IMG/VR virus record: IMGVR_UViG_3300030433_002104
Location: 41,192-105,191 of that record
Source of the DNA: a virus
Lineage: Duplodnaviria; Caudoviricetes
Reading direction: 5' to 3' (one strand)
Length of the DNA: 64,000 bases
The notes beneath the pieces were generated by a model that was given only the letters and a program-made list of their open reading frames with translations, was not told the origin of the DNA and made no database searches. Position 1 is the first letter of the stretch, and each line of letters begins with the position of its first letter. A program made the position numbers and the translations under genes. Positions 1 to 25,661 of the stretch are shown in pieces.

Positions 1-2
1 AT

Positions 3-8005: not shown

Positions 8006-8323
8006 ATGAATTTTTGTTCTTTTACTGGGTTCTTAGTTGATGACCCAAAGTTGGAAGATGATAATAACGTGAGTCTACTAAGGTTCACCATCGTGTGCTA
8101 TACGTATAGAAAGACGAAAAGCACTGGAGAAAAAAGCAGGATTCCAACATTCATGAGCTGCGAGGCTTGGCATACTGGCGCTGAGACAATAGCTAAGTTC
8201 GCAAAAAAAGGTACTAAGATACACATCCATGCCTCGGCTAGGAATCCAGCCAAAGGTAAATCTGGGATAGTATTCAGAGTTAATGAGTTTGACATTATAA
8301 ACCAAGAGGCATCAGATGCGTAA
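8006..8323 (+). CDS. ssb: Single-stranded DNA-binding protein (short, no long acidic tail)
   Basis: MN...GFLVDDPKL...FTI...TFMSCEAW...AETIAKFAKKG pattern of the SSB OB fold. Confidence 0.75.
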   Translation: MNFCSFTGFLVDDPKLEDDNNVSLLRFTIVCYTYRKTKSTGEKSRIPTFMSCEAWHTGAETIAKFAKKGTKIHIHASARNPAKGKSGIVFRVNEFDIINQEASDA

Positions 8324-9977
8324 GAAACGAATTTTATTCTGTAGTGAAGCTACTTTTCTAAACACGGGTTATGCTACATATACAAGAGAGATCTTGAACT
8401 ATCTTCATTCTACAGGCAAATATGAAATTGCTGAGATGGGATGTTATGGAATGATAGGAGACCCTAAAGCTGCGGACATACCTTGGAAGTTTTATGGTGT
8501 AGTACCACCAGAGAATTTTCCCGAAGAGAAGAAAAAAGAGTACCACTCTAAACCTACAAACCAGTTTGGAGAATGGATATTTGAGGAAGTGTGTTTAGAC
8601 TTCATGCCAGATATTGTCTGTGATATTCGTGACTTCTGGATGCTAGACTTTGCAGAACGATCTCCCTATAGAGATTATTTTAAGTGGTGCATAATGCCAA
8701 CTGTTGATGCTAGACCACAAGCAAGACAGTGGATAGCCACTTATGAGGGAGCTGATGCCTGTCTATCATATTCTGATTGGGCTGGTGGTATTTTGGAGGA
8801 TCAATCCGGTGGGAAGATAAACTATATAGGATGTGCTCCTCCATCTGCTCACCCTGCGTATCAACCTGTAGAAGATAAGGACATGCACAAAGTAAATGTT
8901 GGAATTGACCCTGCCTTCAAGGTTATTGGGACTGTCATGAGGAATCAGCGTAGAAAGCTTTTCCCAGACTTGTTTGAAGCGTTTAGAAAGTTCTTAGACG
9001 CATCGGAAGATAAAAATTATTACCTATACTGTCACACTAGTTACCCAGACTTAGGCTGGGATATACCAGAGCTGATCCATCAAAATGAGTTGGCATCTAA
9101 AGTTATGCTGACATACATATGTAAAGAAACTGGCAGGCCGTTTCCTTCTTTATTTAAAGGGGCAGTAATTCAATCCCCATTTACTGGAAGACGCAGTGCT
9201 GTTGTGTGCAGTGTTAAAGATGGGGCGACTTATGAAGATTTAGCTTCAATTATCAACACGTTTGATGTCTATATTCAGTATGCAAACTCAGAAGGTTTTG
9301 GACTTCCTCAAGTAGAAGCAGCTGCCTGTGGAGTGCCTGTCATGTCAACAGACTACTCAGCGATGGAAAGCGAAGTGCGTAAACTTGGAGGCGTACCGCT
9401 AAAGCCAAGAGCTTTATACAAAGAACTTGAAACTGGCTGTTACAGGGCAGTGCCCGACAACGACAACACCGCTAAAGAACTATTGAAGTTCTTCTCGCTT
9501 AGTCAGGAAGAAAGAGACGAGCTTGGTAAGACTGCTCGTAAAAACTTTGAAGAAAAGTACCAATGGCATTTGAGCGGTGCGATGTGGGAAAACTACTTCG
9601 ACAGTGTAGAAATTCTTCCAATAGAGCAGACTTGGTTATCTCCACCCAAGATTAGACAGCCAGAGCCAAAGCCTCAAGAACTACCTCAAAATGTAACGCA
9701 TCAAGGTCTAGCAAAATGGCTTATATCTAGCGTATTATGCGAGCCAGAAAAGCTTGACAGTTTTACGGAGGCAAGGCTGTGTAGAGATTTATCCTATCAA
9801 AGCTCAACGGGAACCACTGGAGGAATGTACTACAACGAAAGCTCGGCAGCTTTTGACGGCGCAGCTACTAGGAACCCATTCAACTTTGATATTGCATATA
9901 ACCACTTGAAGGCTTTGTGTGAGAGAAGAAATCACTGGGAACAAGTTAGATGGCAAAGGATGCAGAATATTAGATGA
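8316..9977 (+). CDS. GT-B glycosyltransferase (GT4 family)
   Basis: TGYATY, MRNQRRK and SEGFGLPQVEAAACGVP (EX7E) motifs. Confidence 0.9.
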   Translation: MRKKRILFCSEATFLNTGYATYTREILNYLHSTGKYEIAEMGCYGMIGDPKAADIPWKFYGVVPPENFPEEKKKEYHSKPTNQFGEWIFEEVCLDFMPDIVCDIRDFWMLDFAERSPYRDYFKWCIMPTVDARPQARQWIATYEGADACLSYSDWAGGILEDQSGGKINYIGCAPPSAHPAYQPVEDKDMHKVNVGIDPAFKVIGTVMRNQRRKLFPDLFEAFRKFLDASEDKNYYLYCHTSYPDLGWDIPELIHQNELASKVMLTYICKETGRPFPSLFKGAVIQSPFTGRRSAVVCSVKDGATYEDLASIINTFDVYIQYANSEGFGLPQVEAAACGVPVMSTDYSAMESEVRKLGGVPLKPRALYKELETGCYRAVPDNDNTAKELLKFFSLSQEERDELGKTARKNFEEKYQWHLSGAMWENYFDSVEILPIEQTWLSPPKIRQPEPKPQELPQNVTHQGLAKWLISSVLCEPEKLDSFTEARLCRDLSYQSSTGTTGGMYYNESSAAFDGAATRNPFNFDIAYNHLKALCERRNHWEQVRWQRMQNIR

Positions 9978-10786
9978 TAAGTTTTATTGTACAAGGGCCA
10001 GTGTCAGAATCTACACAAAACACAGTAGACTCTATACTGGAACATTATCCAGACTCGGAAATAATCTTAGCGTCTACCAATGGAGTAACAGATGTAGACA
10101 ATGTAGACAAGATACACTTGGATGGTCATGATGAAGAAGTAATACTAAATAAACAAATACTCAGCAGTAGAGCTGTAAACAAAGCTAAGTTTGATGTAGC
10201 CTGCAAGGTAAGAAACGATATTGTTTTTACAAATAACAACTTAATGAATTTCGTCAATGGTGAGTTACTTTCGCAGGAGCCTCATCAGAGACTGGAAACC
10301 CATCGCTTGTTTGACAGGCTTGTTCTTTCCAGTAATTACTTTTTCTGCAACCCAGAAACATCAGGGTTTTACTATCATCCATCGGACTGGATTTTCTTAG
10401 GACTTACATCAGACCTGAAAAAACTCTTCAACATTCCGCTGCAAGACCCAAAGGAAAACGTTTACTACTTGGAAGAAGAGGTGGTATTACCTTTTGGGGA
10501 CGTGATCACTGGCGAAAGAATGAAATATAGACCAGAGCAATATATATTTGTAACTGCTCTAAATGAGGCTGGCTTCGATGTATCTCTTGACTACGAATAC
10601 CAAAAACCAGAAGATCAATTGTCGGCTTATAGATTTATAGCAAACAATTTTTATATATCAGACGCAGGAGAGGACTCTGGATTTCACTGTTCCAAGTATC
10701 CGCGCAACGTGGGAGAACACCCACATCTACTAAACAATCATCAATGTAACCTATTAAGAGAAGCTATGCTAGAGGAAGTTAAATGA
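9974..10786 (+). CDS. WavE lipopolysaccharide-synthesis family protein
   Basis: ISFIVQGPV, YPDSEIILAST, NKQILSS, KVRND, YHPSDWIFLG and PEQY motifs. Confidence 0.75.
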   Translation: MISFIVQGPVSESTQNTVDSILEHYPDSEIILASTNGVTDVDNVDKIHLDGHDEEVILNKQILSSRAVNKAKFDVACKVRNDIVFTNNNLMNFVNGELLSQEPHQRLETHRLFDRLVLSSNYFFCNPETSGFYYHPSDWIFLGLTSDLKKLFNIPLQDPKENVYYLEEEVVLPFGDVITGERMKYRPEQYIFVTALNEAGFDVSLDYEYQKPEDQLSAYRFIANNFYISDAGEDSGFHCSKYPRNVGEHPHLLNNHQCNLLREAMLEEVK

Positions 10787-11898
10787 AGGTTTTATATATA
10801 GCACATTACAAAGAAGGCACTGGCTGGTCGCAAGCAGCTATTGATTATATACTTGCGATGGACTCTGTAGGGATTGACGTAGCTTGTCGCAATGTTTCTC
10901 TAACTGGAGCCAACGCCGAAGTCCCTCAAAGGATTTTAGAGCTAGAACAGAAGGATATATCAGACGCTGAGGTATGTATCCAACACGTTTTACCGCACCA
11001 TTTGGTGGGCTCAGATAAGTTTAAAAAGAACATAGCACTCTTTGTCTCTGAGACATCAAGTATTAAGATGAATCCTTGGTTTGTACATTTAGAACAGATG
11101 GATGAGGTGTGGGTTCCAAGTGAACACCTTTGGGATAGTATGTCTCAGGACAATATAAATGCTGTCGTCAAGGTAGTACCGCACGCATTTGAGATGTCAA
11201 AGTATAAAAAGAAATATCCTCAAATGTTAAACCAACAAACAGACGGTACATTTAAGTTCTATTATATTGGCGATCTTAACCAGCGTAAAAATATCGAATC
11301 AATACTTAGATGCTTCCATAGCGAGTTTGATGTTTCTGAGCCAGCGTCTCTCATACTAAAAGTAAACAAGTTCGGGCACGATCCACAGCAAGTCCATCAG
11401 GTTGTTGATGGTATATCTCAAAAAATAAAGCATGAGCTACGGATGTACGATGACGTAAGAATGTACAAACAGGAAGCAGTTCTCTCGTCAAGAATACCAG
11501 AAGAAGACCTATACGGCTTACACCAATACTGCGATTGTTTTATATGTCCATCTCATGGCGAAGCGTGGTCTATCCCATCGTTTGATGCTATGGCCTTTGG
11601 CAACACCCCAATCTGTAGTGATTTTGGTGGCCCTAGAGATTTTATAGATAAAGACAACAAGAATACTGGATGGGTTGTTTCAGGTGTGGATTCCGTATGC
11701 ACTTACACTGACGCAGCTTTCAAAGAAATATTTACTGGAAGAGAAACTTGGGTAACGCCAAACGAGTCTGAGATTAAAAGAGCTATGAGATATTACTATG
11801 AGAATAGAAATGATAGCTCAGATGGGCTAGAAAGAGCTGAGCAGTTCTCTTACGAAAACGTAGGCAATTTAATTAAGGAATTTTTAGGTGGTAAGTAG
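10783..11898 (+). CDS. GT-B glycosyltransferase (GT4 family)
   Basis: DEVWVPS, RKNI and PSHGEAWSIPSFDAMAFG motifs. Confidence 0.88.
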   Translation: MKVLYIAHYKEGTGWSQAAIDYILAMDSVGIDVACRNVSLTGANAEVPQRILELEQKDISDAEVCIQHVLPHHLVGSDKFKKNIALFVSETSSIKMNPWFVHLEQMDEVWVPSEHLWDSMSQDNINAVVKVVPHAFEMSKYKKKYPQMLNQQTDGTFKFYYIGDLNQRKNIESILRCFHSEFDVSEPASLILKVNKFGHDPQQVHQVVDGISQKIKHELRMYDDVRMYKQEAVLSSRIPEEDLYGLHQYCDCFICPSHGEAWSIPSFDAMAFGNTPICSDFGGPRDFIDKDNKNTGWVVSGVDSVCTYTDAAFKEIFTGRETWVTPNESEIKRAMRYYYENRNDSSDGLERAEQFSYENVGNLIKEFLGGK

Positions 11899-12913
11899 TC
11901 ATAAAATTAGAATACCAGCATTGCCTCCATCGGTGGAGACAAGAAATATAATCAGCAAGGTTGGAGAGAGTAAAAAAGATAAATATACAATCTTGACTTT
12001 TCCGACGCACGAAAGATATGAAACGGGACTGGCTAAAACAGGTCACGACTTCTATGCTTTCAGGTCTGAAGGTTTAAAGGACTGGAATACAAATTATGGG
12101 CAAGTACCGCCCAACTATTACCTACTTCCACCTGAGTCTATCTTTAACGGTATACAGTTTGATTTCATCCTGTCTCAGAGTAAGTTTGGTCAGTTCCAAA
12201 CCGCAAAACTTTTACAGGAGCGATTAGGAGTTCCTTTAGTGTCTTTGGAGCACACGCTGCCTACATCAAATGTAAAGCCAGAGTGGTTAGAAGAAATCAG
12301 AACTATGTCTGGAGATATTGACGTTTTTATCTCAGAGTATTCTAGAGACGAATGGAAAATTAATAGCACAAAGTCTGAGGTAGTTCATCACTGTGTAGAC
12401 TCGGAATTGTTTAAGCCATCAGATGTTGAACAATCGCCATATGTTTTGAGCGTTGTCAACGACTTTAGAGGTAGAGACTATTGTTGTAACTATTCAGGAT
12501 GGGAGCGAGTGACTGAAGGATTAGAGACAAAGGTGGTAGGGGAAAATGGAGATTTGGGAAGCCCCGCAGAGTCAGTAGAAAAACTTGTCGAAGAATATAA
12601 TAGTGCGCAAGTTTTCCTTAATACATCCACGGTTAGTCCAATCCCAACCGCCCTCTTGGAAGCAATGTCTTGCGGATGCGCTGTAGTTACAACCGCCACA
12701 TGTATGATACCTGAAATAGTTAAAAATGGTGTGAATGGTTTTATCTCTAACGATGAAAAGGAATTGCGTGGATATATAGAACAATTATTGGAAGACGAAG
12801 AATTAAGAAACAAACTTGGACAAGAAGCGAGAAAGACAATACTGGAAGACTTTTCAGAACAACGTTTTCTTGAATCTTGGGCAGACATATTTGACAAAGC
12901 TTACGGAGTATAA
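11888..12913 (+). CDS. GT-B glycosyltransferase (GT4 family)
   Basis: PTALLEAMSCGCAVV, PEIVKNGVNG and LRNKLGQEARKTI motifs; start uncertain. Confidence 0.88.
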   Translation: MVSSHKIRIPALPPSVETRNIISKVGESKKDKYTILTFPTHERYETGLAKTGHDFYAFRSEGLKDWNTNYGQVPPNYYLLPPESIFNGIQFDFILSQSKFGQFQTAKLLQERLGVPLVSLEHTLPTSNVKPEWLEEIRTMSGDIDVFISEYSRDEWKINSTKSEVVHHCVDSELFKPSDVEQSPYVLSVVNDFRGRDYCCNYSGWERVTEGLETKVVGENGDLGSPAESVEKLVEEYNSAQVFLNTSTVSPIPTALLEAMSCGCAVVTTATCMIPEIVKNGVNGFISNDEKELRGYIEQLLEDEELRNKLGQEARKTILEDFSEQRFLESWADIFDKAYGV

Positions 12914-12915
12914 AA

Positions 12916-13338
12916 ATGAAATTACATATAGTAAACCCAGAACAAGATGTGATTGAAGGCTATGAGCGCGTTGATGTAGTCAACGGAGCTATAGACTTAT
13001 CACAGTATGCTGAAAATGAGTGCGACTTTATTCTAGCATCTGACTCTCTAAACGGCATGAGTATAGAACAGGCTCATCAAGCAGTTTTTGAGATTACTAA
13101 AAAGATGCGAAGAAATGCCAAGCTAGTTATTGGAGGGCTAGACATTAGACTCGTTGCCAGACACATAGTGCGTGGCGGCTGGAATACGCCAGAGGCGAAC
13201 CAGAATATCTTTTCTAACAGCTCCTGCTTGGATGTTAATTATACTAGAAATTTATTAGCAAGCTGTGGACTTACAATAGAATCAACTAGAGTTTTAGGAT
13301 TATCTTATGAAATCGAAGCAACAAGAAAGCTGGGCTAA
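12916..13338 (+). CDS. Hypothetical protein, degenerate SAM-methyltransferase-like
   Basis: ENECDFILAS and KKMRRNAKLVI resemble methyltransferase motifs; no GxG motif I. Confidence 0.45.
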   Translation: MKLHIVNPEQDVIEGYERVDVVNGAIDLSQYAENECDFILASDSLNGMSIEQAHQAVFEITKKMRRNAKLVIGGLDIRLVARHIVRGGWNTPEANQNIFSNSSCLDVNYTRNLLASCGLTIESTRVLGLSYEIEATRKLG

Positions 13339-14056
13339 AACCTCTTGCAGAGAGTGCAATCTTGCAGTATTTGAGGGCAACAAGCAAACAGGATGTCAGG
13401 CCAAAAGGTTAAAAAAGTTTGCGAGCATAGTTCACTCGTATGATGATGAAAAAGAGTTCTACGTTATAAACGACGCTTGCAACTATTATTCGTCCACAGA
13501 AACCATGGAACAAGTTGTACAGAGGAAAAAAGTCAAATTCGGCATTGTTGTAAACGTAGATGAAAAGAACATAAATCTAGAAGCTACAGTTAATTCCATT
13601 GTCAATTCTGGATACCAGTCAGATAAGATGTCTGTTATCATAGTACATAGAGGCAATACTAACGAAGATATTAAAAAAGCTGTAATATCTGGACTGAAAA
13701 CGCTAGAGGATAAAGACATACCTTGCATTGCTGTGGCATTGGCAAAGCACGCCGATATTGACTATGAGTCTTTTAAGCACACTAATGGATGCAACTATTG
13801 CTGCAGGGTTTATGCAGGACAGTTGATATATCCGAACACTTTTGCGTTTATTAACAATCATCTTAATTTGAGCCTTGGCAAGAGTGTCTACTTTAGACAG
13901 CCAGAGGAGCCAAACAACATTAATATCATACTAAGAAAAGTTATTTCTCTTAGGTATTTGAATTATGGTAACTATTCTGATTTTGAACAGGGCGTAGCTG
14001 AAGAAGCAAAACAAGAGAATTTGTATATAGAAATAAAAGATGCGAAGAAACACTAA
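13307..14056 (+). CDS. Hypothetical protein with N-terminal Cys cluster and degenerate GT-A-like domain
   Basis: CRECN...C...CNYY, then LEATVNSIVNSGY...VIIV; no DxD. Confidence 0.45.
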   Translation: MKSKQQESWAKTSCRECNLAVFEGNKQTGCQAKRLKKFASIVHSYDDEKEFYVINDACNYYSSTETMEQVVQRKKVKFGIVVNVDEKNINLEATVNSIVNSGYQSDKMSVIIVHRGNTNEDIKKAVISGLKTLEDKDIPCIAVALAKHADIDYESFKHTNGCNYCCRVYAGQLIYPNTFAFINNHLNLSLGKSVYFRQPEEPNNINIILRKVISLRYLNYGNYSDFEQGVAEEAKQENLYIEIKDAKKH

Positions 14057-14813
14057 TTTTATAACGTCGCCAAGAGAGAAGGCTTCGGGCGAAAGGGTTG
14101 ATGACTTTGTTAGCATCATACTTTTGTCGGAGAACTGCGGCTATAGAATGAAATCATACGGGCCAATACCGCTCCTAAAGATAGGCGGCAAGTGCTTAAT
14201 TGATACGCAAATAGAAGAAATACAAAGTGTTTTTTCAGAGTTTGAAATTATACTATGCAGTGGCTTTGGGTCTACAAAAATAGCAAAGTATATCAGAGAG
14301 CAATACCCAGCGTTGAACATTAGGATAGTAGAAAACCAATTATATGAGTATTCAAATTCCTGTGAAAGTTTAAGACTATGTTTAAATAACACAACTAACA
14401 ATAAAGTCCTAGTTTGTAACGGCGAACTAATGATAAATAGGGATGTATTGTCGCTTATAAGTTTGAAATCTTCTTTTATAGTCTCAGAATCTGTTGACAA
14501 TGACAATTTAGAAGTTGGAGTTACTATCAACGAACGAGGACATACTGAGAATTTTTGCTATGGTATTGAAAACACTTGGTCAGAAATACTATTCTTGCAT
14601 GAAAAGAGTATCGTAGAAACCATACGCGCTATAATATCAGACGCTGAGTATAAGAACAAATTTATCTTTGAGGCGCTCAACGAGCTAAGCAGGACAAAGC
14701 ACAGGCTATCAGTAGTAGAAAACAACATCGCACCAATAACCAAAATAAATAACATAAAAACTTATCATCAAATTAGGAAGACAAATGAAAGCACTAATAC
14801 AAAACTACATTAA
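14040..14813 (+). CDS. Nucleotidyltransferase-fold protein (LicC/NTP_transf-like), degenerate active-site loop
   Basis: IILLSENCGYRMKSYGP.PLLKIGGKCLID, IILCSGF, ENQLYEYSNSCESL, VCNGEL. Confidence 0.7.
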   Translation: MRRNTNFITSPREKASGERVDDFVSIILLSENCGYRMKSYGPIPLLKIGGKCLIDTQIEEIQSVFSEFEIILCSGFGSTKIAKYIREQYPALNIRIVENQLYEYSNSCESLRLCLNNTTNNKVLVCNGELMINRDVLSLISLKSSFIVSESVDNDNLEVGVTINERGHTENFCYGIENTWSEILFLHEKSIVETIRAIISDAEYKNKFIFEALNELSRTKHRLSVVENNIAPITKINNIKTYHQIRKTNESTNTKLH

Positions 14814-18359: not shown

Positions 18360-19164
18360 TATGAGCACACCGCCATCAAAAACGCCAGAAGCTGACTTTG
18401 AGGTAATTAAGTCAATGCTTTCCAACGGCGAAAACTTTTCCTTGTCTAGATTCTCAGACGGTGAATTGTTGGTGTGTAACGGTATTGAGGTAGCGATGCA
18501 GTCTGGCCATAATCAAATTGGCGAGGCTACATTTCATGCGGACAATAGCAAAGATGACATTAAGCATTTTGACCCTAAATTACACGGTGAGACACAAAAG
18601 AGGCTGTACAAGGCTTTATTATATAATGCGCCCAACTATTTTAAGGGGTTGAACTGCTATTGCTGTACCGCTAAAATGTGGAGCCCAGCATTAGTGACTA
18701 GAGAAAGACAGTTTGCGGGGTTTGATGTGTCTAGGCTGACTTGGGCCAATGTCCTCATAAACTCAAACTACAAAAGATTTATGGATGAGATTGTACCAAT
18801 ACTAAAGACTAGAAAGCTTTACATGGTCGTGAATGAAAATGCAGACTTAGACGCTTCTGAGTTTAACATAGAGCGTGCGTTTAGAGTTGGTCAAAACTGT
18901 ATGGTAAATGACATTGGCTTGATAGATGAAATTAAATCATATATAGATGATAACAGCGTCGTTGATGGCGTGTTCTTATGTGCGGCTTCTAGCCTATCCA
19001 ACATGATTATACATGAGTGTCACATGCATAACACAAATAATACATATATTGATATTGGTTCATCACTCAACCCACTACTGCCGGGAATCGGAAGTAGAAG
19101 AGAATATATGAAGCAACTAACCGGAGACATTCAACAAATGGAGAGCTGTAGATGGGGCTGGTAG
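18352..19164 (+). CDS. GT-D fold glycosyltransferase (DUF1792-like)
   Basis: FSLSRFSDGE and YIDIGS motifs. Confidence 0.7.
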   Translation: MASMSTPPSKTPEADFEVIKSMLSNGENFSLSRFSDGELLVCNGIEVAMQSGHNQIGEATFHADNSKDDIKHFDPKLHGETQKRLYKALLYNAPNYFKGLNCYCCTAKMWSPALVTRERQFAGFDVSRLTWANVLINSNYKRFMDEIVPILKTRKLYMVVNENADLDASEFNIERAFRVGQNCMVNDIGLIDEIKSYIDDNSVVDGVFLCAASSLSNMIIHECHMHNTNNTYIDIGSSLNPLLPGIGSRREYMKQLTGDIQQMESCRWGW

Positions 19165-19532
19165 AATGTACATATGACTACTGGGGTTTTGTATTAGAAG
19201 TAAGAAACCTGACGAGCAAAGCGTTCTTTGTAAAAAGCCACATAACTAAGGCAGAGCACTTTGACTTTATGTTAAAAAATTATCAAACTTATAGGATTTG
19301 TATTGACGACGAAGGAACACCTATGGGGTTTGTAGCGCATGTAGACAATGATATTAGAATAGCTACACATCCAAAATTTCAAAAGAGAGGCGTAGCTAAG
19401 TTTATGCTAACAGAATTTATGGCTGAGTTTCCAGAAGCTGTCGCCAAAGTAAAACACGATAATATTGCAAGCCTTAACCTTTTTGAGTCTTGCGGTTTTC
19501 AAGTAGATTATTATGGATTGAAAAAATGCTAA
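19152..19532 (+). CDS. GNAT N-acetyltransferase
   Basis: HPKFQKRGVAK (acetyl-CoA motif A) and NIASLNLFESCGF (motif B). Confidence 0.88.
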   Translation: MGLVECTYDYWGFVLEVRNLTSKAFFVKSHITKAEHFDFMLKNYQTYRICIDDEGTPMGFVAHVDNDIRIATHPKFQKRGVAKFMLTEFMAEFPEAVAKVKHDNIASLNLFESCGFQVDYYGLKKC

Positions 19533-20167
19533 GACACCCACATGAAATTGTAAAATGGTTTGAAGAAGAAGTTGCTCACTATACAGGCGCTAAGTACGCG
19601 GTCGCAGTAGATAACTGCACTAATGCAATACGTATGTGCTGTGAGTATTTACAGGTTAAAGAAGTTACTATACCTAGCAAAACTTATTTGTCAGTGCCGC
19701 AGTCTATTATACAGGCCGGCGGCAGAGTTAAGCTAGAAGAATTGGAATGGCAAGGCATATACCAACTTAAGCCATATCCAATTTATGACGCAGCTAAAAG
19801 GTTTACGTCAGAAATGTACATAGAAGGCACACTCATGTGTTTATCGTTTGGCATTAAAAAGAACCTTAAGCTGGGAAAGGGTGGAATGATTCTGACGGAC
19901 AATATTGATGCAGTTGAAGCCCTTAAAAAACTTAGGTGGTCAGGACGACACGAGTCTACGCCTATGCCCGAAGACGAAGTAAACGATATGGGTTACAATA
20001 GTTATATTACGCCAGAGTGGGCGGCCAGAGGCCTCATGTTGCTGAGTGTGTACCCAGAACACCACTCAGACCAACACGAAGAAGGCGGGTATCCTGATCT
20101 AGCTAGATATGGATTTATGAAAAAACACAGCAAAAATAACGGAATTGGTTTTAATGAAACAAGATAA
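19526..20167 (+). CDS. DegT/DnrJ/EryC1/StrS sugar aminotransferase (short form)
   Basis: FEEEVAHYTGAKYAVAVDNCTNA, YDAA, and CLSFGIKKNLKLGKGGMI (PLP lysine). Confidence 0.85.
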   Translation: MLRHPHEIVKWFEEEVAHYTGAKYAVAVDNCTNAIRMCCEYLQVKEVTIPSKTYLSVPQSIIQAGGRVKLEELEWQGIYQLKPYPIYDAAKRFTSEMYIEGTLMCLSFGIKKNLKLGKGGMILTDNIDAVEALKKLRWSGRHESTPMPEDEVNDMGYNSYITPEWAARGLMLLSVYPEHHSDQHEEGGYPDLARYGFMKKHSKNNGIGFNETR

Positions 20168-20888
20168 AAGAGTAGCTCTTTGTTTACACGGATATTTTGA
20201 TTCCCAGCAGGATGGAAACTCAAAAGGTCTAGACGGGTATCAACACTTACTTAATCGTGTTTACAGCAAATGCGATCCAGATGTATTCATCCACAGCTGG
20301 CAACCAGAACTGTCTCAACAAATAAACGACATATATAAACCAAAGGCTTTTGTATATCAGCCTCAGATAGACTTCATGCCATTTGCGAGAGAAAGAAATT
20401 TGTACTCGCTGCCTCAAGCGTGTCCGCCAATGAGACGCACGCCGGAAGTAATAATGTCACACTTCTATTCTGTACAGGAATCGTTCAAACTGTGTTACGG
20501 AACAGGAAAGGAATACGATATAATTATAAAAGCTAGATTTGACATCGGACGAATCAATAGAAATCCAGATTCAATTCCCGTGCAGTGTATCACGTTTGAC
20601 CCGACATTAGATATGTCAACTGTCAAAATGGCAGACTGGAACATGTTTGATCAAGGCCCAGCAGACATGTGGTTTTATGGAGACCAGAAAGTCATGTCAA
20701 GTTTCGCAGGGATATTTCACGACTTATACAATGAGTTTTATTTAGACAGTGAATTTCACAAGTGGGTTCAAGAAAAACCGTGCTTTAATGTTAATGACTT
20801 ATCAAACGCAGTTGCGTTTTACCACTGGTGGTTTAAAAAGCATAACCTGTGGGATACCAAAGATGCGTTAGAATGTGAGTTTGAATAA
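20154..20888 (+). CDS. Putative glycosyltransferase-like protein
   Basis: VALCLHG, DVFIHSW and YDIIIKARFD pattern common in glycan loci. Confidence 0.55.
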   Translation: MKQDKRVALCLHGYFDSQQDGNSKGLDGYQHLLNRVYSKCDPDVFIHSWQPELSQQINDIYKPKAFVYQPQIDFMPFARERNLYSLPQACPPMRRTPEVIMSHFYSVQESFKLCYGTGKEYDIIIKARFDIGRINRNPDSIPVQCITFDPTLDMSTVKMADWNMFDQGPADMWFYGDQKVMSSFAGIFHDLYNEFYLDSEFHKWVQEKPCFNVNDLSNAVAFYHWWFKKHNLWDTKDALECEFE

Positions 20889-21613
20889 TGGACGTAGCAG
20901 TATATTCACACATAGAGTACAGTGATTGTTGGCCAGCCTTCTTTGGCGAATTCAATAAGTATTGTACGGTAGACTTTGACAACAAGTATATATTTTCTAA
21001 CGAGCTAGATGGCTCAGAAGATAACAGCTTTCAACATATTGCATATAATGATAGCGAGGCTTACACGGATAGGCTTCTGTCCTGCCTTAAGCAGTTGGGT
21101 CGAGGCAAAGTTCTGTTCACACATGAAGACATGATACTATGCGATACAGTAGATGAAAATTATCTGAAAGAAGCTGAAGCGGCTGTAGGTGACGTAGATT
21201 TCGTAAAACTACTAAAAGGCGGTAGCCCAAAGGACACAAGGGAAGATATAAAATATAAATCAAGTAAAGTATTAAAATATTGTAGACACACATTTGATTA
21301 TGTATTCGCAATACAACCAACTATATGGAAAACAGAGAGACTAATAGAACTTCTAGAGAACAATCTAGGACAGAGTATATGGGAATTTGAGACGGTAGGG
21401 CAGGAATATTGTAGGAAAGCCAACTACAAAGGACTGTATTCATTCCACAGGGACGATGTTCAGCGTGGACATTTTCACTGGCACTCTACCGTCTACCCAT
21501 ATATTGCCACAGCAATTCATAAAGGAAAGTGGGTCACTAGCGAGTACCCCGCAGAGCTAAACAATTTGTTTACTGAATACAACATAAACCCTGAAATTAG
21601 AGGAACCACATAA
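20888..21613 (+). CDS. Putative GT-A glycosyltransferase-like protein
   Basis: YSDCWP, VLFTHED, QPTIWK, SIWEFE and KGKW motifs. Confidence 0.55.
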   Translation: MDVAVYSHIEYSDCWPAFFGEFNKYCTVDFDNKYIFSNELDGSEDNSFQHIAYNDSEAYTDRLLSCLKQLGRGKVLFTHEDMILCDTVDENYLKEAEAAVGDVDFVKLLKGGSPKDTREDIKYKSSKVLKYCRHTFDYVFAIQPTIWKTERLIELLENNLGQSIWEFETVGQEYCRKANYKGLYSFHRDDVQRGHFHWHSTVYPYIATAIHKGKWVTSEYPAELNNLFTEYNINPEIRGTT

Positions 21614-22314
21614 TGCCTAGAAGCTGGCTAAAAAATGACTACAGAAAGTCGTCAGAGTACAAAGAAAATCTCAAACACTTTTATGCTATGGGTACATCTA
21701 ATCATTCAGAACATAACAAGAACCCAGATTACTGGGACATATTAATAAGCGACCTGACAAGCTCACCAAACAGCTGGAGTAGAAAAGTATTTTTGGACTT
21801 TGGCTGTGGGAAAGGCAGAAACATTGTAAACGCAAAAAACCTTTGCAATTGGGATAAACTTATTGGAGTTGACATAAGCAGTGAAAATATAGAATACTGC
21901 AAAAATAATTTAGGTTATGCAGGTGTGGAATGGTATGAAAACGAAGGAGGTAATGTACCACTTTCGGATGAATCTGTTGACTTTGCTTTATCAACTATAG
22001 TTTTGCAGCATATATGCCAACATGATCTAAGGGTGCAGATAAAGAAAGAGATTTACAGAGTTTTGAAGAACGGAGGAGTTTTCTCATTTCAAATGGGATT
22101 TGATGGGAAAAACACTCATAGTAAAAACCACGCATATCACGCCAATTTTGCAGCCAAAGGTTCCAATGGACAAGATGATGTTGGCGTTGAAAACGAAGAA
22201 CAGCTAACACACGACCTAGAAAAGATTGGGTTTAAAAACATAGAGCACAAAATAAAAACTTCTTATTCAGACGATCAACACAAACACTGGATTTATACGA
22301 GGTGTGAAAAATGA
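21613..22314 (+). CDS. Class I SAM-dependent methyltransferase
   Basis: LDFGCGKGR, GVDIS, VLQHI, RVLKNGG. Confidence 0.9.
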   Translation: MPRSWLKNDYRKSSEYKENLKHFYAMGTSNHSEHNKNPDYWDILISDLTSSPNSWSRKVFLDFGCGKGRNIVNAKNLCNWDKLIGVDISSENIEYCKNNLGYAGVEWYENEGGNVPLSDESVDFALSTIVLQHICQHDLRVQIKKEIYRVLKNGGVFSFQMGFDGKNTHSKNHAYHANFAAKGSNGQDDVGVENEEQLTHDLEKIGFKNIEHKIKTSYSDDQHKHWIYTRCEK

Positions 22315-23687
22315 TTAAACTTGTAGTATTTGATCTAGATGGTGTTTTAGTAGATGCAAGGGACTTGCACTATGACGCTATGAATTTAGCACTTGCTGAT
22401 ATAGCGCCCGAATGTGTTATCAGCAGAGAAGAGCACCTATCTACCTACGACGGGCTACCAACCAAGAAAAAGCTGGGACTATTAACAGAACACAAAGGTT
22501 TGTCGCAGGACTTGTATAACGACATCTGGAAAGCGAAGCAAGCTAAAACAGTGCAGCTTATCAACAGTATGACCACTGACCATAGAATGGCACACACGTT
22601 GTCAGAACTGAAAAAGTCAGGATACAAAGTTTATGTCGGCTCTAACTCAGTTAAGCACACTATTAAAATGATGTTGCTACGTAGAGGGTTGATTGAATTT
22701 GTTGATGAAATATTTTCCAACCAAGACGTTAATCATCCAAAGCCGCATCCAGAGATATATTTAAGGTGCATGGTTCATGCTGGAGTATCTCCAAACGAAA
22801 CAATTATTATTGAAGACTCACATGTTGGCAGAAAAGCCGCTATGGACTCTGGTGGCAATCTGTTTGCAGTAAAGAATCCAGACGATGTTATATTGGAAGA
22901 TATAGTAGAAGAGATCAAAAAAATTGACAAAACACAAAAAGAAGTAAAGCCAAAATGGCAGGGTGGAAAAATGAATGTATTAATACCGATGGCTGGAGCT
23001 GGATCACGCTTTCAAAAGGCTGGATACACTTTCCCAAAACCGCTAATCGAAGTCAATGGCAAGCCCATGATTCAGGTGGTAGTAGAAAATATAAACGTAG
23101 ACGCAAAGCATATATTTGTAGTGCAGAAATCACACTATGAAAAGTACAACCTAAAAACCGTTTTAAATAACATTACTCCTGACTGTGAGATTGTTCAGGT
23201 AGACGGTGTTACTGAGGGAGCCGCTTGCACCACGTTGTTAGCAAAAGAGTTTATTAACAATGACCAGCCTCTACTAATGGCAAACTCAGACCAGTTTGTA
23301 GAATGGGATTCAAATGAGTTCATGTACTCAATGGTGGGAGATAACATAGATGGTGGCATGTTAACCTTTAGGTCAAACCATCCAAAGTGGAGTTACGCAA
23401 AGTTGAACGATGACGGCTTTGTGACAGAAGTCCAAGAAAAGAATCCAATCAGTGACATTGCAACCGTTGGAATCTATTACTGGGCTAAGGGGTCTGACTA
23501 TGTTAGGTATGCAGAGCAGATGATAGACAACGACATTCGTGTTAATAATGAATTTTATGTATGTCCGGTTTTTAATGAAGCCATCGCTGATAATAAAAAA
23601 TTAAAGATATTTGACATCGAAAAAATGTGGGGCTTGGGAACTCCAGAGGACTTAAACTATTTTTTGGAGAACAAGAACGATGCATAA
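22311..23687 (+). CDS. Fusion of HAD phosphatase and sugar nucleotidyltransferase (GT2_BcE-like)
   Basis: FDLDGVLVD, PKPHPEIY and IEDS, then LIPMAGAGSRF...PKPLIEV, EGAACT, NSDQ, EFYV and GLGTPEDL. Confidence 0.9.
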   Translation: MIKLVVFDLDGVLVDARDLHYDAMNLALADIAPECVISREEHLSTYDGLPTKKKLGLLTEHKGLSQDLYNDIWKAKQAKTVQLINSMTTDHRMAHTLSELKKSGYKVYVGSNSVKHTIKMMLLRRGLIEFVDEIFSNQDVNHPKPHPEIYLRCMVHAGVSPNETIIIEDSHVGRKAAMDSGGNLFAVKNPDDVILEDIVEEIKKIDKTQKEVKPKWQGGKMNVLIPMAGAGSRFQKAGYTFPKPLIEVNGKPMIQVVVENINVDAKHIFVVQKSHYEKYNLKTVLNNITPDCEIVQVDGVTEGAACTTLLAKEFINNDQPLLMANSDQFVEWDSNEFMYSMVGDNIDGGMLTFRSNHPKWSYAKLNDDGFVTEVQEKNPISDIATVGIYYWAKGSDYVRYAEQMIDNDIRVNNEFYVCPVFNEAIADNKKLKIFDIEKMWGLGTPEDLNYFLENKNDA

Positions 23688-24447
23688 GTTTAAGTTATAC
23701 ATAGTAACATACAATCATGAAGAGGCTCTGGACAGATGTTTAAAGTCCATTAGTAATAGTGATATACATTTATATAGTAACGAAATTAATATTATAAACA
23801 ATTATGGAAGATTGAAAATTCCAAACACTTATGGCCTAGAGGTCAACATATTAGATAATGTTCTTAGGCCAGACCACTCCACCGGACATCTTGGCAGGAA
23901 CTGGAACCAAGCAATCATAAATGGTTTTGGAGATTTGAGAAATCCACAATGTGAGTTTGTAGTATGCCTTCAGGTAGACACAGAAGTGCTGCCGGAATGT
24001 TTCTCTAGGTTAGAAAGGTATCATTCAGAAGGCTACGAATATATACAAGAAGGAAGGGGAGACCAGTTTATGAGTTGGTCGCCAAAAGGAGTGGTTGAGA
24101 TTGGGCTTTTTGACGAAAGAATATGTGGAATAGGATTTCAAGAAGGAGAATATTTTAGTAGGGCTAAGAAGTTTCTTAGTGCTGGTACGTCGTTAAATGA
24201 TAGAGGGCACAACATGTTTCACAATGCTATACCCGAAAAACTGGTCGCAGACTATGGTGACAGCATATGTGTTGGCTTGTTTCACCCTTTATATCAGGCT
24301 TTACAGCAGAACTCAATAAACGGCGGAAGTAGGTATTTTATGTACCCATTTTTTGAAAAGGACTTAAGTGAAAATCTAATGAGAGACTTGGGGTATGTGG
24401 GCTGGCAAGAGCTGACCAAACATAGAGACAAAACTTTTTTAAAATAG
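23680..24447 (+). CDS. GT-A glycosyltransferase (GT2-like)
   Basis: IVTYN, LGRNWNQAI, LQVD and IGLFDER motifs. Confidence 0.75.
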   Translation: MHKFKLYIVTYNHEEALDRCLKSISNSDIHLYSNEINIINNYGRLKIPNTYGLEVNILDNVLRPDHSTGHLGRNWNQAIINGFGDLRNPQCEFVVCLQVDTEVLPECFSRLERYHSEGYEYIQEGRGDQFMSWSPKGVVEIGLFDERICGIGFQEGEYFSRAKKFLSAGTSLNDRGHNMFHNAIPEKLVADYGDSICVGLFHPLYQALQQNSINGGSRYFMYPFFEKDLSENLMRDLGYVGWQELTKHRDKTFLK

Positions 24448-24472
24448 CATACACATAAATGGAGAGTCATAA

Positions 24473-24790
24473 ATGACTAAAAACCTAAAGGACATGATTG
24501 GCGGATGGTTTATCGGAGACTTTGAACCAACCGCATGGAGGACGGCGGGACTTGAAGTGGCCGTTAAAGAGTACAAGGCTGGAGACAAAGAGCCAAAACA
24601 TTTACATAAAATAGCAATAGAGTTTACGGTAATAGTAAGAGGCAAAGTTGTAATGAACGGCGTTGAGTACGGGGAAGGAGACATTATTCGTATTGACGCA
24701 GGAAAAGCTACAGACTTTGAAGCCTTAGAAGATACAATCACAGTAGTAGTCAAAAAACCATCCGTAAAAGGAGATAAATATCTAGTATGA
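24473..24790 (+). CDS. Cupin-fold protein of sugar-modification loci
   Basis: GWFIGDFEP and HLHKIAIE metal motif; RBS GGAG. Confidence 0.7.
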   Translation: MTKNLKDMIGGWFIGDFEPTAWRTAGLEVAVKEYKAGDKEPKHLHKIAIEFTVIVRGKVVMNGVEYGEGDIIRIDAGKATDFEALEDTITVVVKKPSVKGDKYLV

Positions 24791-25218
24791 AAATTATATC
24801 ACATAGAGGAAATTTAGACGGGCCACAGGAACAGGACAATGTTATAAGTGAGCTCGAAAGAGTCTCTAAAGACATGCTTGTCGAAGTTGACGTGTGGCAC
24901 ATGGAGCATGGTTGGTATCTTGGTCACGACGGGCCAGAAAGAGCCATCTCATTTGATTTTATTACAAACCCAAACTTTATTTTACACGCCAAGAATTTAG
25001 ACGCTTTGTATAAACTGACAGGCACAAACCTACATTATTTTTGGCATCAAGAAGACGATTTTACACTAACATCTAAACAAATTATATGGACTTATCCTAA
25101 AAAAGAAGTCACCAATCGCTCTATCATTGTCTGCCAGACATTGGAAGAAGTAGAGGAATATAAGACTAAAGACATTTGGGGTATTTGCACAGACTATGTA
25201 AAGGACGCACAGCGATGA
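24787..25218 (+). CDS. Glycerophosphodiester phosphodiesterase/PLC-like protein
   Basis: IISHRGN, VEVDVW, LGHD, HAKN, GICTDY. Confidence 0.75.
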   Translation: MKIISHRGNLDGPQEQDNVISELERVSKDMLVEVDVWHMEHGWYLGHDGPERAISFDFITNPNFILHAKNLDALYKLTGTNLHYFWHQEDDFTLTSKQIIWTYPKKEVTNRSIIVCQTLEEVEEYKTKDIWGICTDYVKDAQR

Positions 25219-25661
25219 ATATAGGCATTTATTTTAATAATACATCAGAATCAGAACCGTTATACAAAGCGCTACAGAGCGTAAATGAGGGCCTCTCAGA
25301 GGGTACTCTTAGGGACGCAAGTATATTTTATGACGACTCTGGCCCAAATAGCATACCGTCAAAATGTGGTTTCTTTGACGCTGTAGAACTATGGCATTTT
25401 ACAGGGGATTTAATAACCACTTCTTTAAGTACTACCAACAAGGTTCGCAATATTGTGAATAAGTTTGATACTGTATTTTACTACGGATGGTATGACGAAA
25501 GAGATCCACTAGAATTAATCAAAGTAGCTAACGACAAAAACGTTAAAGTTGTGTGCAATAGCCAGACTAGTAAAAACCAATTTACTAGACTTACTGGTCA
25601 AGAGCCAGACGCTGTAGTACAAGACTTTGACCTAGAAAAAATCATAGAGGTGAAAAAATGA
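25215..25661 (+). CDS. Hypothetical protein (possible GT-B N-terminal-like domain)
   Basis: ATGA overlap at 25215; intact ORF with Rossmann-like pattern. Confidence 0.5.
   Translation: MNIGIYFNNTSESEPLYKALQSVNEGLSEGTLRDASIFYDDSGPNSIPSKCGFFDAVELWHFTGDLITTSLSTTNKVRNIVNKFDTVFYYGWYDERDPLELIKVANDKNVKVVCNSQTSKNQFTRLTGQEPDAVVQDFDLEKIIEVKK

What the first reader, a model, noticed from the sequence alone, without database searches (positions are those of the whole stretch)
8316..25661. A 17-kb, ~23-gene phage glycan assembly line
Seen: three GT4, two to four GT-A, one GT-D and one WavE gene, plus WecB, an SDR dehydratase, aminotransferase, GNAT, methyltransferase, HAD-nucleotidyltransferase, cupin and GDPD-like genes, almost all overlapping. 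No flippase, polymerase, undecaprenyl-phosphate transferase or other obvious multi-pass membrane protein is present. Established: serotype-converting phage loci are small and membrane-based, whereas giant viruses and some mycobacteriophages glycosylate their own particles with soluble GTs. Inference: a cytoplasmic pathway that builds a complex glycan on virion proteins.
Basis: partly seen in the sequence, partly recalled or inferred. Interest (0 to 1): 0.85.

Follow-up and report, generated by a model that had tools for sequence, protein, structure and literature searches.

The report
Marine phage's soluble glycan-building cluster
A widespread uncultured marine phage carries 21 tightly packed genes for soluble sugar-making and sugar-adding enzymes: a seven-gene core shared by its whole lineage plus a strain-specific add-on. 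No membrane export parts are present, so the sugar chain is probably built inside the cell, most plausibly on the phage's own particle proteins, though the target is unproven.

Summary
Window 8316-25218 carries 21 co-directional, almost all overlapping genes. Five are confident glycosyltransferases (GTs) and four are GT-like. The rest include WecB, an SDR, GNAT, methyltransferase, HAD-nucleotidyltransferase and a shortened DegT. None has a membrane-type hydrophobic segment.

New here: the cluster has two layers.
- **Core.** Seven genes follow DnaE-SSB in every relative examined (over 550 viral contigs). They are a 553-aa GT4, two more GT4s, a truncated methyltransferase-like protein, a Zn-ribbon/GT-A-like protein, a cytidylyltransferase-like protein and a CgeB-like protein.
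- **Variable slots.** Two slots are filled only with glycan genes. The island spans 7-28 kb among 37 relatives and 18 kb here.

The 553-aa GT4 is as conserved as the polymerase. It carries inteins at five or more sites in about a third of its family.

Four relatives 94-100% complete lack initiating transferases, Wzx and Wzy/WaaL. They also lack ThyA-like and TET/JBP enzymes, which argues against known DNA-glycosylation routes.

The acceptor is not determined. My odds: virion proteins about 0.4, host envelope glycans via host machinery about 0.27, DNA about 0.08.

The scan flagged look-alike loci before (78 windows, 52 genomes). Verdict: a real, lineage-defining soluble glycosylation system and a new variant of a known kind.

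The parts
8316..9977 (+). Core 1: 553-aa hallmark GT4 (GT-B fold) with a CxxC...CxxC insert and a C-terminal helical extension
   Evidence: Pfam Glycos_transf_1. AF2 model pLDDT 92. Foldseek top hit is 3oy2, a chlorovirus NY-2A GT (E 1e-19), then MshA and BshA. EX7E is intact (E326, E334). Present in 44/44 and 24/24 relatives. Inteins in about a third of family representatives.
9974..10786 (+). Variable slot 1: WavE-family protein
   Evidence: Pfam PF07507, 62.9 bits. Absent from 44/44 close relatives, which carry other genes here, such as GT34-like, FkbM, or mini-DegT plus formyltransferase.
10783..11898 (+). Core 2: GT4
   Evidence: Pfam; 44/44 relatives, median 50% identity.
11888..12913 (+). 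Core 3: GT4
   Evidence: Pfam 74.9 bits; 41/44 relatives; alignment A8.
12916..13338 (+). Core 4: 140-aa truncated class-I methyltransferase-like protein, probably non-catalytic
   Evidence: Matches only Methyltransf_11 positions 44-95, so motif I is missing. Weak PDB methyltransferase hits. 87 homologues in the fetched loci.
13307..14056 (+). Core 5: Zn-ribbon plus GT-A-fold protein without a conserved DxD
   Evidence: AF2 pLDDT 93. Foldseek hits TarP, TarS, SpsA and GnT-I. Only C14, C17, Q27, C30 and C58 are invariant in 30 sequences.
14040..14813 (+). Core 6: IspD/TarI/LicC-like cytidylyltransferase with a divergent Gly loop
   Evidence: Profile against PDB: 4kt7 at 3e-10 and 1jyk at 4e-8. 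44/44 and 20/24 relatives. Loop reads SENCGYRMK.
14785..15660 (+). Core 7: 291-aa protein, CgeB-like Glyco_trans_1_2 lead
   Evidence: Atlas feature hit 0.93 to a 329-member viral PF13524 cluster. 21 invariant residues. No PDB or Pfam hit.
15632..16372 (+). Accessory: GT2 (GT-A)
   Evidence: Pfam 31.3 bits; in 12/44 relatives.
16372..17400 (+). Accessory: WecB, non-hydrolysing UDP-GlcNAc 2-epimerase (longest ORF starts at 16237)
   Evidence: TIGR00236 241.6 bits, above the 210 cut-off; in 4/44 relatives.
17385..18359 (+). Accessory: SDR epimerase/reductase-type enzyme (longest ORF starts at 17295)
   Evidence: Pfam Epimerase 1e-28. STTSVYG/YAKIK and no TDE.
18352..19164 (+). Accessory: GT-D-like protein
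   Evidence: PF22882 and NF040628 both below cut-off. Invariant DXE. No PDB sequence hit. In 9/44 relatives.
19152..19532 (+). Accessory: GNAT acetyltransferase
   Evidence: Pfam 36.3 bits.
19526..20167 (+). Accessory: shortened DegT-family protein (longest ORF starts at 19490)
   Evidence: Pfam and PDB hits. Lys aligned with the catalytic Lys; about 40 residues missing. A 48%-identical copy sits beside a formyltransferase in L016.
20154..20888 (+). Accessory: unknown, virus-restricted family
   Evidence: No Pfam or PDB hit. Atlas 0.97 to viral clusters.
20888..21613 (+). Accessory: unknown 241-aa protein
   Evidence: No hits.
21613..22314 (+). Accessory: SAM methyltransferase, motif I intact
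   Evidence: Methyltransf_11 67 bits; LDFGCGKG.
22311..23687 (+). Accessory: HAD (beta-phosphoglucomutase family) fused to a sugar-1-phosphate nucleotidylyltransferase
   Evidence: Pfam and NCBIfam. DLDGV and GAGSR intact.
23680..24447 (+). Accessory: GT2-like, borderline
   Evidence: Pfam 21.5 bits against a 23.3 cut-off.
24473..24790 (+). Accessory: small cupin, weak
   Evidence: Cupin_2 22 bits against 27.2.
24787..25218 (+). Accessory: 143-aa protein with an ISHRG (GDPD-like) N-terminal motif
   Evidence: phrog_34507, unknown function, 7e-16. No Pfam hit. Motif read.
25215..25661 (+). Boundary: first gene of the lineage-conserved downstream block, not visibly glycan-related
   Evidence: In relatives with core-only clusters, homologues sit directly after the core, next to homologues of 25658, 26422 and 27192.

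Best explanation
**What it is.** A soluble, cytoplasmic glycan assembly system that is a hallmark of a large uncultured lineage of roughly 160-kb marine tailed phages.

**How it works.**
1. Phage enzymes supply activated sugars.
   - WecB makes UDP-ManNAc.
   - The HAD-nucleotidyltransferase fusion makes an NDP-hexose.
   - The SDR, short DegT, GNAT and methyltransferase tailor it.
   - The core cytidylyltransferase-like protein may supply a CDP-/CMP-activated unit.
2. Three conserved GT4 enzymes, probably helped by the CgeB-like protein, build an inner glycan common to the lineage. The truncated methyltransferase-like protein and the DxD-less GT-A-like protein may act as non-catalytic partners.
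3. Strain-specific transferases (here WavE, GT2, GT-D-like and GT2-like) add a variable outer part.
4. The acceptor is most plausibly one or more virion proteins, modified in the cytoplasm before or during assembly. The particle would then carry a conserved-core, variable-tip glycan coat.

**Shown:** gene content, solubility, the core/variable architecture, and the absence of export genes and of known base-hydroxylating genes.

**Inferred:** the order of steps, non-catalytic roles, and above all the acceptor.
For: - **Enzyme families and motifs:**
- **No membrane segments or export genes:** for hydropathy. No Bac_transf, Glycos_transf_4, Polysacc_synt or Wzy_C in four relatives 94-100% complete.
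- **Core conserved with synteny:** 44/44 close and 24/24 distant relatives.
- **The 553-aa GT is as conserved as DnaE:** 67% against 62-66% median identity in close relatives, 42% against 44-50% in distant ones. That fits a lineage-conserved acceptor.
- **Inteins at five or more conserved sites of that GT** mark it as a strongly constrained, probably essential phage gene.
- **Variable slots hold only glycan genes**. They differ between phages 93% identical in DNA, with homology ending exactly at the core's end. Island length ranges 7.2-28.5 kb.
- **Best fold match of the hallmark GT** is a chlorovirus GT (3oy2). By established knowledge, chloroviruses glycosylate their capsid with their own soluble enzymes.
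- **GT-D-like protein with an invariant DXE**. The GT-D fold was defined on DUF1792, which is characterised by DXE (PMC9804384) and acts on a serine-rich adhesin (PMC5063993).
- **Known DNA routes are absent:** no ThyA-like, ThyX, Tet_JBP or C5-methylase. The GTs are acidic, pI 4.8-5.5.
- **Precedent:** Che8-type mycobacteriophages carry glycans on capsid proteins (PMC11256854, citing Freeman 2023).
Against: - No acceptor was identified.
- Structural proteins in the window have no long Ser/Thr-rich tracts.
- The cluster is transcribed with replication genes, not with the structural module.
- GT4, GT2 and WavE families mostly act on lipid-linked or wall glycans.
- Soluble GTs can modify host polymers using host carriers and exporters; the core GT-A-like protein is closest in fold to TarP.
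- The same genome encodes envelope-directed proteins: PAP2 and Tat-type DUF1501.
- Similar polymorphic clusters in jumbo cyanophages were interpreted as host-surface modification (PMC7824862).
- The fold match to the chlorovirus GT is only modestly better than to cellular GT4s.
Confidence: 0.4

Rival explanations
1. Host-envelope remodelling. The soluble phage GTs act at the cytoplasmic face on host lipid-linked or polymer intermediates (O-antigen/core, wall polymer, capsule or S-layer glycan). They rely on the host's own initiating transferase, flippase or ABC exporter and ligase. This changes the infected cell's surface, for example to block superinfection or to stop progeny sticking to debris.
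For: - WavE, GT2 and GT4 are typical LPS and wall-glycan families.
- The core GT-A-like fold is closest to TarP and TarS, soluble wall-teichoic-acid GTs.
- IspD/TarI/LicC-like and TagD-like cytidylyltransferases are present.
- PAP2 and Tat-exported DUF1501 genes in the same genome show investment in the envelope.
- Strain-level polymorphism resembles serotype loci.
- This is the published reading of cyanophage GT clusters (PMC7824862).
Against: - A seven-gene core is conserved with synteny across relatives as far apart as 42-50% identity in the polymerase.
- One GT is as conserved as DnaE and riddled with inteins. That is hard to reconcile with acceptors that differ between hosts.
- No phage-encoded carrier, flippase or ligase is found in any complete relative.
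- The core GT-A-like protein lacks a conserved DxD.
Confidence: 0.27
2. DNA hypermodification. The GTs decorate a modified base of the phage genome with an oligosaccharide that protects it from host nucleases.
For: - The cluster follows DnaE-SSB directly and is co-directional with replication genes.
- The hallmark GT is extremely conserved and carries inteins, which are commonest in DNA-metabolism proteins.
- A T4 gp1-like dNMP kinase is encoded upstream.
- Thousands of phage DNA-glycosylation clusters exist, with GTs related to LPS and teichoic-acid enzymes (bioRxiv 10.1101/2023.12.21.572611; PMC13326640).
Against: - No ThyA-like hydroxymethylase or hydroxylase, ThyX, TET/JBP dioxygenase or C5 methyltransferase is found in this contig. 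None is found in four relatives 94-100% complete. Known pathways cluster with such genes (section 9 of the bioRxiv paper).
- All GTs are acidic.
- Five to nine transferases imply a glycan far larger than the one to three sugars known on DNA.
Confidence: 0.08
3. Another acceptor. The pathway makes a soluble or secreted glycoconjugate or small molecule, or glycosylates non-structural phage proteins or host proteins. The conserved core might, for example, make a cytoplasmic oligosaccharide, glycolipid or modified metabolite needed during infection.
For: - The fold neighbours of the hallmark GT include enzymes acting on small soluble acceptors: MshA, BshA, sucrose-phosphate synthase and trehalose-6-phosphate synthase.
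- Weak Pfam hits to 'GT4 in conflict systems' for the hallmark GT and for the upstream GT4.
- Several core members look like pseudo-enzymes, so the system may not be a simple linear pathway.
Against: - Strain-level diversification of the outer glycan genes suggests a product exposed to recognition.
- There is no positive evidence for any specific alternative acceptor.
Confidence: 0.2

Closest known systems
Virion glycosylation of cluster F1 mycobacteriophages (Che8, Rita; Freeman et al. 2023, as cited in PMC11256854)
   Same: Phage-encoded soluble GTs with no export machinery. The glycan is built in the cytoplasm and ends up on capsid proteins.
   Different: Those systems have a few GTs at a genome end in about 60-kb temperate actinophages. 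Here there are 21 genes (7 universal) next to replication genes, with dedicated nucleotide-sugar synthesis, in roughly 160-kb marine phages. The acceptor is not demonstrated here.
Autonomous glycosylation of giant viruses (chlorovirus capsid glycans; mimivirus fibril glycans; review PMC9614988)
   Same: Virus-encoded nucleotide-sugar pathways plus many soluble GTs. The best fold match of the hallmark GT is a chlorovirus GT, 3oy2.
   Different: Those are eukaryotic viruses. No sequence-level orthology was shown beyond the GT4 fold (16% identity).
Polymorphic sugar/GT clusters of jumbo cyanophages, read as host outer-polysaccharide modification (Iyer et al. 2021, PMC7824862)
   Same: Multi-GT clusters with NDP-sugar enzymes that vary between related marine phages.
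   Different: Those are sporadic. Here a seven-gene core is universal, syntenic and as conserved as the polymerase.
Phage DNA glycan hypermodification clusters (Pyle et al. 2023 bioRxiv 10.1101/2023.12.21.572611; Lee et al. 2026 PMC13326640)
   Same: GT-A and GT-B enzymes related to LPS and teichoic-acid GTs, often near replication genes, sometimes with sugar-nucleotide genes.
   Different: The defining base-hydroxylating partner (ThyA homologue or 5mYOX/TET) is absent from complete relatives. The number of GTs is far larger.
Serine-rich-repeat adhesin glycosylation (GtfA/GtfB plus GT-D dGT1; PMC5063993, PMC9804384)
   Same: Cytoplasmic, sequential O-glycosylation by soluble GT4 and GT-D enzymes, including a non-catalytic GT-like partner.
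   Different: The hallmark GT is not GtfA-like by fold ranking. The GT-D match is below cut-offs. No serine-rich repeat substrate was seen.
TarP wall-teichoic-acid GlcNAc transferase (PDB 6h2n and others), which I recall as prophage-encoded
   Same: A soluble GT-A, and the best fold match of the core 249-aa protein.
   Different: TarP is a single catalytic gene with DxD. The core protein here lacks a conserved DxD and has an extra Zn-ribbon domain.

Membership tests
Virus-encoded autonomous (cytoplasmic) virion glycosylation | Virus encodes soluble glycosyltransferases | tested here: met
   Five GTs above Pfam cut-offs, four more GT-like, and none with a hydrophobic segment.
Virus-encoded autonomous (cytoplasmic) virion glycosylation | Virus encodes its own nucleotide-sugar supply | tested here: met
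   WecB is above the equivalog cut-off. The HAD-NTP transferase has intact motifs. PMM, PMI and a CMP-sugar synthetase lie elsewhere in the genome.
Virus-encoded autonomous (cytoplasmic) virion glycosylation | Glycan covalently attached to virion proteins | not testable with these tools
   Needs virions and mass spectrometry. No Ser/Thr-rich acceptor tract was seen.
Phage DNA glycosyl hypermodification pathway | Enzyme that creates a hydroxyl handle on a base (ThyA-type hydroxymethylase/hydroxylase or TET/JBP dioxygenase) | tested here: not met
   PF00303, PF02511 and PF12851 have no match in G000 or G001. PF00303 and PF12851 have none in G009, G019, G022 or G024, which are 94-100% complete.
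Phage DNA glycosyl hypermodification pathway | GT(s) encoded near replication or nucleotide-metabolism genes | tested here: met
   The cluster follows DnaE-SSB. RNR, dUTPase and dNMP kinase lie upstream.
Membrane-based serotype conversion / O-antigen-capsule loci (Gtr, Wzx/Wzy, ABC) | Initiating polyprenyl-phosphate transferase (WbaP or WecA type) | tested here: not met
   PF02397 and PF00953 are absent from complete relatives, and PF00953 also from G000.
Membrane-based serotype conversion / O-antigen-capsule loci (Gtr, Wzx/Wzy, ABC) | Flippase and polymerase/ligase | tested here: not met
   PF01943 and PF04932 are absent. No multi-pass protein lies in the cluster. ABC exporters were not searched.
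SRRP-type accessory glycosylation (GtfA/B, GT-D) | GT-D (DUF1792) enzyme with a DXE metal site | tested here: inconclusive
   Profile hits are below cut-offs. D36-G37-E38 is invariant in 12 homologues. The profile finds no GT-D structure by sequence.
SRRP-type accessory glycosylation (GtfA/B, GT-D) | GtfA-like initiating GT4 and a serine-rich repeat substrate | tested here: not met
   The sequence hit to GtfA is weak only (E 0.1). GtfA is not among the top fold matches. No long S/T-rich tracts.
GT4 (retaining GT-B) family, for the 553-aa hallmark protein | GT-B two-Rossmann fold with an EX7E motif | tested here: met
   AF2 pLDDT 92 and Foldseek matches to GT4 structures at E down to 1e-19. E326 and E334 are conserved.

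The most novel reading that the evidence does not exclude
An abundant, uncultured lineage of marine phages coats its virions with a glycan organised like a bacterial LPS. A conserved inner core would be built by an essential, intein-invaded GT4 machine that includes pseudo-enzyme subunits. A hypervariable outer part would be encoded in two gene-swapping slots. Phages would then have their own 'serotypes', made by the most complex glycosylation system known in a bacterial virus.
Probability: 0.33. Interest if true: 0.88.

Novelty: new variant of a known kind. Interest (0 to 1): 0.7.

Why it matters
Phage-encoded glycosylation is known from small systems (a few GTs on mycobacteriophage capsids, one to three sugars on DNA, Gtr-type serotype conversion). 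This one differs in three ways.

- **It defines a lineage.** A seven-gene core system marks a globally distributed marine phage lineage. More than 550 viral contigs carry it, and near-identical DNA turns up in at least 10 marine studies.
- **Its lead enzyme is unusually constrained.** It is as conserved as the DNA polymerase and is a major intein host.
- **It has a fast-swapping periphery.** The variable slots hold only glycan genes.

If the acceptor is the virion, phage particles can carry complex, serotype-like glycan coats. That would affect adsorption, decay, grazing and immune recognition. If the acceptor is the host envelope or DNA, the system is an unusually elaborate and obligatory form of those strategies. 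In each case the core genes give a concrete set to express and assay. The hallmark GT is also a usable marker gene for the lineage.

Tried and rejected
**Searches that found nothing**
- Megablast of the cluster against 50,697 phage records: no match.
- tblastn of the hallmark GT: only a 22%-identical GT in Tetrasphaera phage TJE1.
- DnaE: at most about 31% identity to any record. So no cultured relative is available.
- PHROGs on ten minus-strand proteins (fibre-like and smaller structural-module ORFs): no family.
- Profile or sequence searches against PDB for the 291-aa, 249-aa, 247-aa and 241-aa proteins and for the GT-D-like family: nothing significant.
- Pfam at E<=5 for seven unknown ORFs: nothing useful beyond the partial methyltransferase match.
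- The search for related loci with one distant homologue (P0259): no locus.
- BLAST all-against-all within the cluster: no paralogy.

**Uninformative or unreliable**
- Promoter and terminator scans: counts no higher than in shuffles. This says nothing about operon structure.
- Host inference is unreliable. One lineage contig is binned in a SAR202 MAG and another protein is labelled Verrucomicrobiales.
- NeuB is absent from this 63%-complete contig, so the upstream CMP-sugar synthetase has no visible synthase partner here.
- A metatranscriptome run holds short contigs on 16 of 30 bins of the cluster. DNA carry-over cannot be excluded, so this is not counted as evidence of expression.
- The single 795-nt 'skip' in that run comes from one low-depth contig and was not interpreted.

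- Neighbourhoods of distant homologues with precomputed Pfam, and a test of whether the putative pseudo-enzymes bind the GT4s, could not be run.

**Ideas rejected**
- The hallmark GT as a GtfA-type enzyme (fold ranking).
- The SDR as a 4,6-dehydratase (no TDE).

Full report
**Context.** The window is the last 64 kb of a 105,191-bp viral contig that CheckV rates 63% complete.
- Plus-strand genes run to 27527. They include a two-piece DnaE with an exonuclease gene between the pieces, and SSB.
- Upstream, outside the window, lie DnaB, primase, dNMP kinase, RecA, RNR, dUTPase and PhoH.
- From 27625 on, minus-strand genes encode giant proteins of 1802, 1681, 3800 and 1970 aa, plus smaller structural genes.
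- No cultured phage is close.
- Near-identical DNA occurs in marine, seawater, reef and estuary metagenomes of at least 10 studies other than the likely source.

**The observation.**
- Confirmed: three GT4, WavE, GT2, WecB (above the equivalog cut-off for the non-hydrolysing epimerase), an SDR, GNAT, a methyltransferase and a HAD(beta-PGM family)-nucleotidyltransferase fusion.
- Weaker: GT-D (below both cut-offs, but with an invariant DXE in 12 homologues, with the motif's meaning from PMC9804384), a second GT2 (just below cut-off), a cupin, and a 'GDPD-like' 143-aa protein supported only by an ISHRG motif.
- Correction 1: the SDR lacks the T-D-E of 4,6-dehydratases.
- Correction 2: the DegT protein is a 225-aa form. 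It keeps the aligned catalytic lysine but is about 40 residues shorter than perosamine synthetase. A 48%-identical copy in relative L016 sits beside a sugar-type formyltransferase, so it is a retained variant and not debris.
- Packing: with plausible start codons, 20 of the 21 junctions from the first GT4 to the gene at 25176 overlap, and the largest gap is 25 nt.
- Membrane segments: no protein between 8316 and 27192 has a membrane-like hydrophobic segment.
- Assembly: contigs from three other studies cover the whole stretch colinearly at about 99% identity with no indels. One 13-kb contig joins the core to the accessory part.

**Anatomy: a core and two variable slots.** I fetched relatives through DnaE (20 loci) and through the first GT4 (over 550 viral contigs, 157 further loci).
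- Core order in all of them: SSB, the 553-aa GT4, slot 1, GT4, GT4, a 140-aa protein, a 249-aa protein, a 257-aa protein, a 291-aa protein, slot 2, then a conserved block homologous to 25176-27527.
- Among 44 close loci with 10 kb downstream, these genes are present in 44, 44, 41, 34, 24, 44 and 36. The lower counts reflect divergence.
- In 24 distant relatives the hallmark GT4 is about 42% identical and DnaE about 44-50%. The synteny persists.
- Accessory genes of this window are rare elsewhere: GT2 12/44, GT-D-like 9/44, WecB 4/44, SDR 2/44, HAD-NTP transferase 2/44. WavE and all others were found in none of the 44.
- Slot contents in relatives are also glycan genes: GT34-like, GT2-like, FkbM methyltransferase, SDR and formyltransferase.
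- Two phages 93% identical in DNA lose homology exactly at the end of the core.
- In 37 relatives the distance from the hallmark GT4 to the homologue of 26422 is 7.2-28.5 kb, median 12.8 kb. Here it is 18.1 kb.

**The core proteins.**
- *Hallmark 553-aa protein.* It models with pLDDT 92 as a GT-B enzyme with an intact EX7E, a four-cysteine insert and a helical C-terminal extension. Its best fold match is a chlorovirus GT (3oy2, E 1e-19), followed by MshA, BshA, PimB' and sucrose-phosphate synthases.
- *Size of its family.* There are 3300 clusters at 50% identity, 619 of them at E<=1e-30.
- *Inteins.* 49 of the top 150 representatives carry inserts of 138-403 aa at about residues 102, 109, 125, 132, 210 and 323. 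The last site is immediately before EX7E. Hint/LAGLIDADG domains were confirmed at five of these sites.
- *140-aa protein.* It matches only the second half of a class-I methyltransferase.
- *249-aa protein.* It models (pLDDT 93) as a Zn-ribbon plus a GT-A fold closest to TarP and TarS. Only four cysteines and one glutamine are invariant in 30 sequences, and there is no conserved DxD.
- *257-aa protein.* It is IspD/TarI/LicC-like by profile, with a divergent glycine loop.
- *291-aa protein.* It is a CgeB-like GT lead only.
- So the core probably mixes catalytic GT4s with non-catalytic relatives.

**What is the acceptor?**
- *Membrane-based synthesis is excluded as a self-contained phage function.* Complete or near-complete relatives (166.8 kb, 100%; 161.1 kb with terminal repeats, 100%; 98%; 94%) lack WbaP- and WecA-type transferases, Wzx and Wzy/WaaL.
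- *Known DNA routes are not supported.* There is no ThyA-like enzyme, ThyX, TET/JBP or C5 methylase. Published DNA-glycan clusters usually sit with such genes. The GTs are acidic. The number of transferases implies a glycan much larger than those known on DNA.
- *Virion proteins versus host envelope intermediates.* Two facts favour an acceptor inherited with the phage: the vertical conservation of the core, and the polymerase-like constraint on the lead enzyme. The variable outer genes suggest a product exposed to recognition.
- *This is inference.* Soluble phage GTs such as TarP modify host polymers, and the genome carries other envelope-directed genes. Similar cyanophage clusters have been read as surface modification (PMC7824862). 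I found no serine/threonine-rich acceptor tract.
- *My odds.* Virion proteins 0.40, host envelope 0.27, another acceptor 0.20, DNA 0.08.

**Comparison and novelty.**
- The system works most like giant-virus and Che8-type virion glycosylation, but membership cannot be claimed without showing glycans on particles.
- It fails the defining feature of DNA-hypermodification clusters and of membrane-based serotype-conversion loci.
- It is not a GtfA/GtfB-type system by fold or substrate.
- I found no published description of a lineage-wide seven-gene glycosylation core with gene-swapping slots and an intein-rich GT. Five literature searches turned up none.
- The scan itself had flagged look-alike loci in 78 windows of 52 genomes.
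- I rate it a new variant of a known kind.

**Limits.**
- The contig is incomplete.
- Hydropathy was a simple Kyte-Doolittle scan.
- The GT-D, cupin, GDPD-like, CgeB-like and second GT2 calls are weak.

Noticed in passing
window 8316-9977 and its family (P0121-P0270): The hallmark GT4 is a major intein host. 49 of 150 family representatives carry one or two inserts at six sites, all at conserved motifs; one site lies directly before EX7E. Hint/LAGLIDADG domains were confirmed at five sites. An intein-rich glycosyltransferase is unusual.
   Followed up: partly
L181 (contig VFHP01000009.1) and P0038: A 93.7-kb contig of this phage lineage is deposited inside a SAR202 MAG. Another lineage protein is labelled Verrucomicrobiales MAG. 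These are either mis-binning or conflicting host hints.
   Followed up: partly
genome outside the window: G000 2224-2724, 9483-10175, 17141-17806, 19182-19895, 22240-23280: Further sugar-related genes are scattered upstream: a TagD-like cytidylyltransferase, a PAP2 phosphatase without hydrophobic segments, a mannose-6-phosphate isomerase C-terminal cupin, a eukaryote-type phosphomannomutase and a fourth GT4.
   Followed up: partly
window 1-1161: A GT29-like protein and a CMP-sugar synthetase-like protein were confirmed by Pfam. No NeuB-type synthase is present in the contig.
   Followed up: partly
window 25176-27527: A four-gene block (161, 255, 256 and 111 aa) is conserved across the lineage directly after the glycan island. 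Pfam gives only weak DUF559/ANT and Zn-ribbon hits, and its function is unknown. It marks the fixed right border of variable slot 2.
   Followed up: partly
window 27625-28347 (minus strand): A 240-aa protein with 23% Ser+Thr is the first gene of the structural arm and is conserved in relatives (about 51% identity). It has no family hit and could be tested as a glycan acceptor.
   Followed up: no
L006 against L007, locus position 19643: Two relatives 93% identical in DNA across DnaE, SSB and the whole core lose all homology exactly after the first gene beyond the seven-gene core (a shared 232-aa ORF with no Pfam hit). One continues into the end block and the other into extra GT2-like genes. This is a sharp recombination boundary.
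   Followed up: partly
genome G000 16015-16494: A 159-aa ORF with about four to six hydrophobic segments is the only multi-pass membrane candidate on the contig. It has no Pfam hit, so it is not recognisable as GtrA; it might be a holin.
   Followed up: no
L007/L009 7522-8986 and L017 8161-11050: In some relatives the DnaE pieces are interrupted by extra ORFs of 217-297 aa that do not match the window. These may be mobile insertions in the polymerase genes.
   Followed up: no
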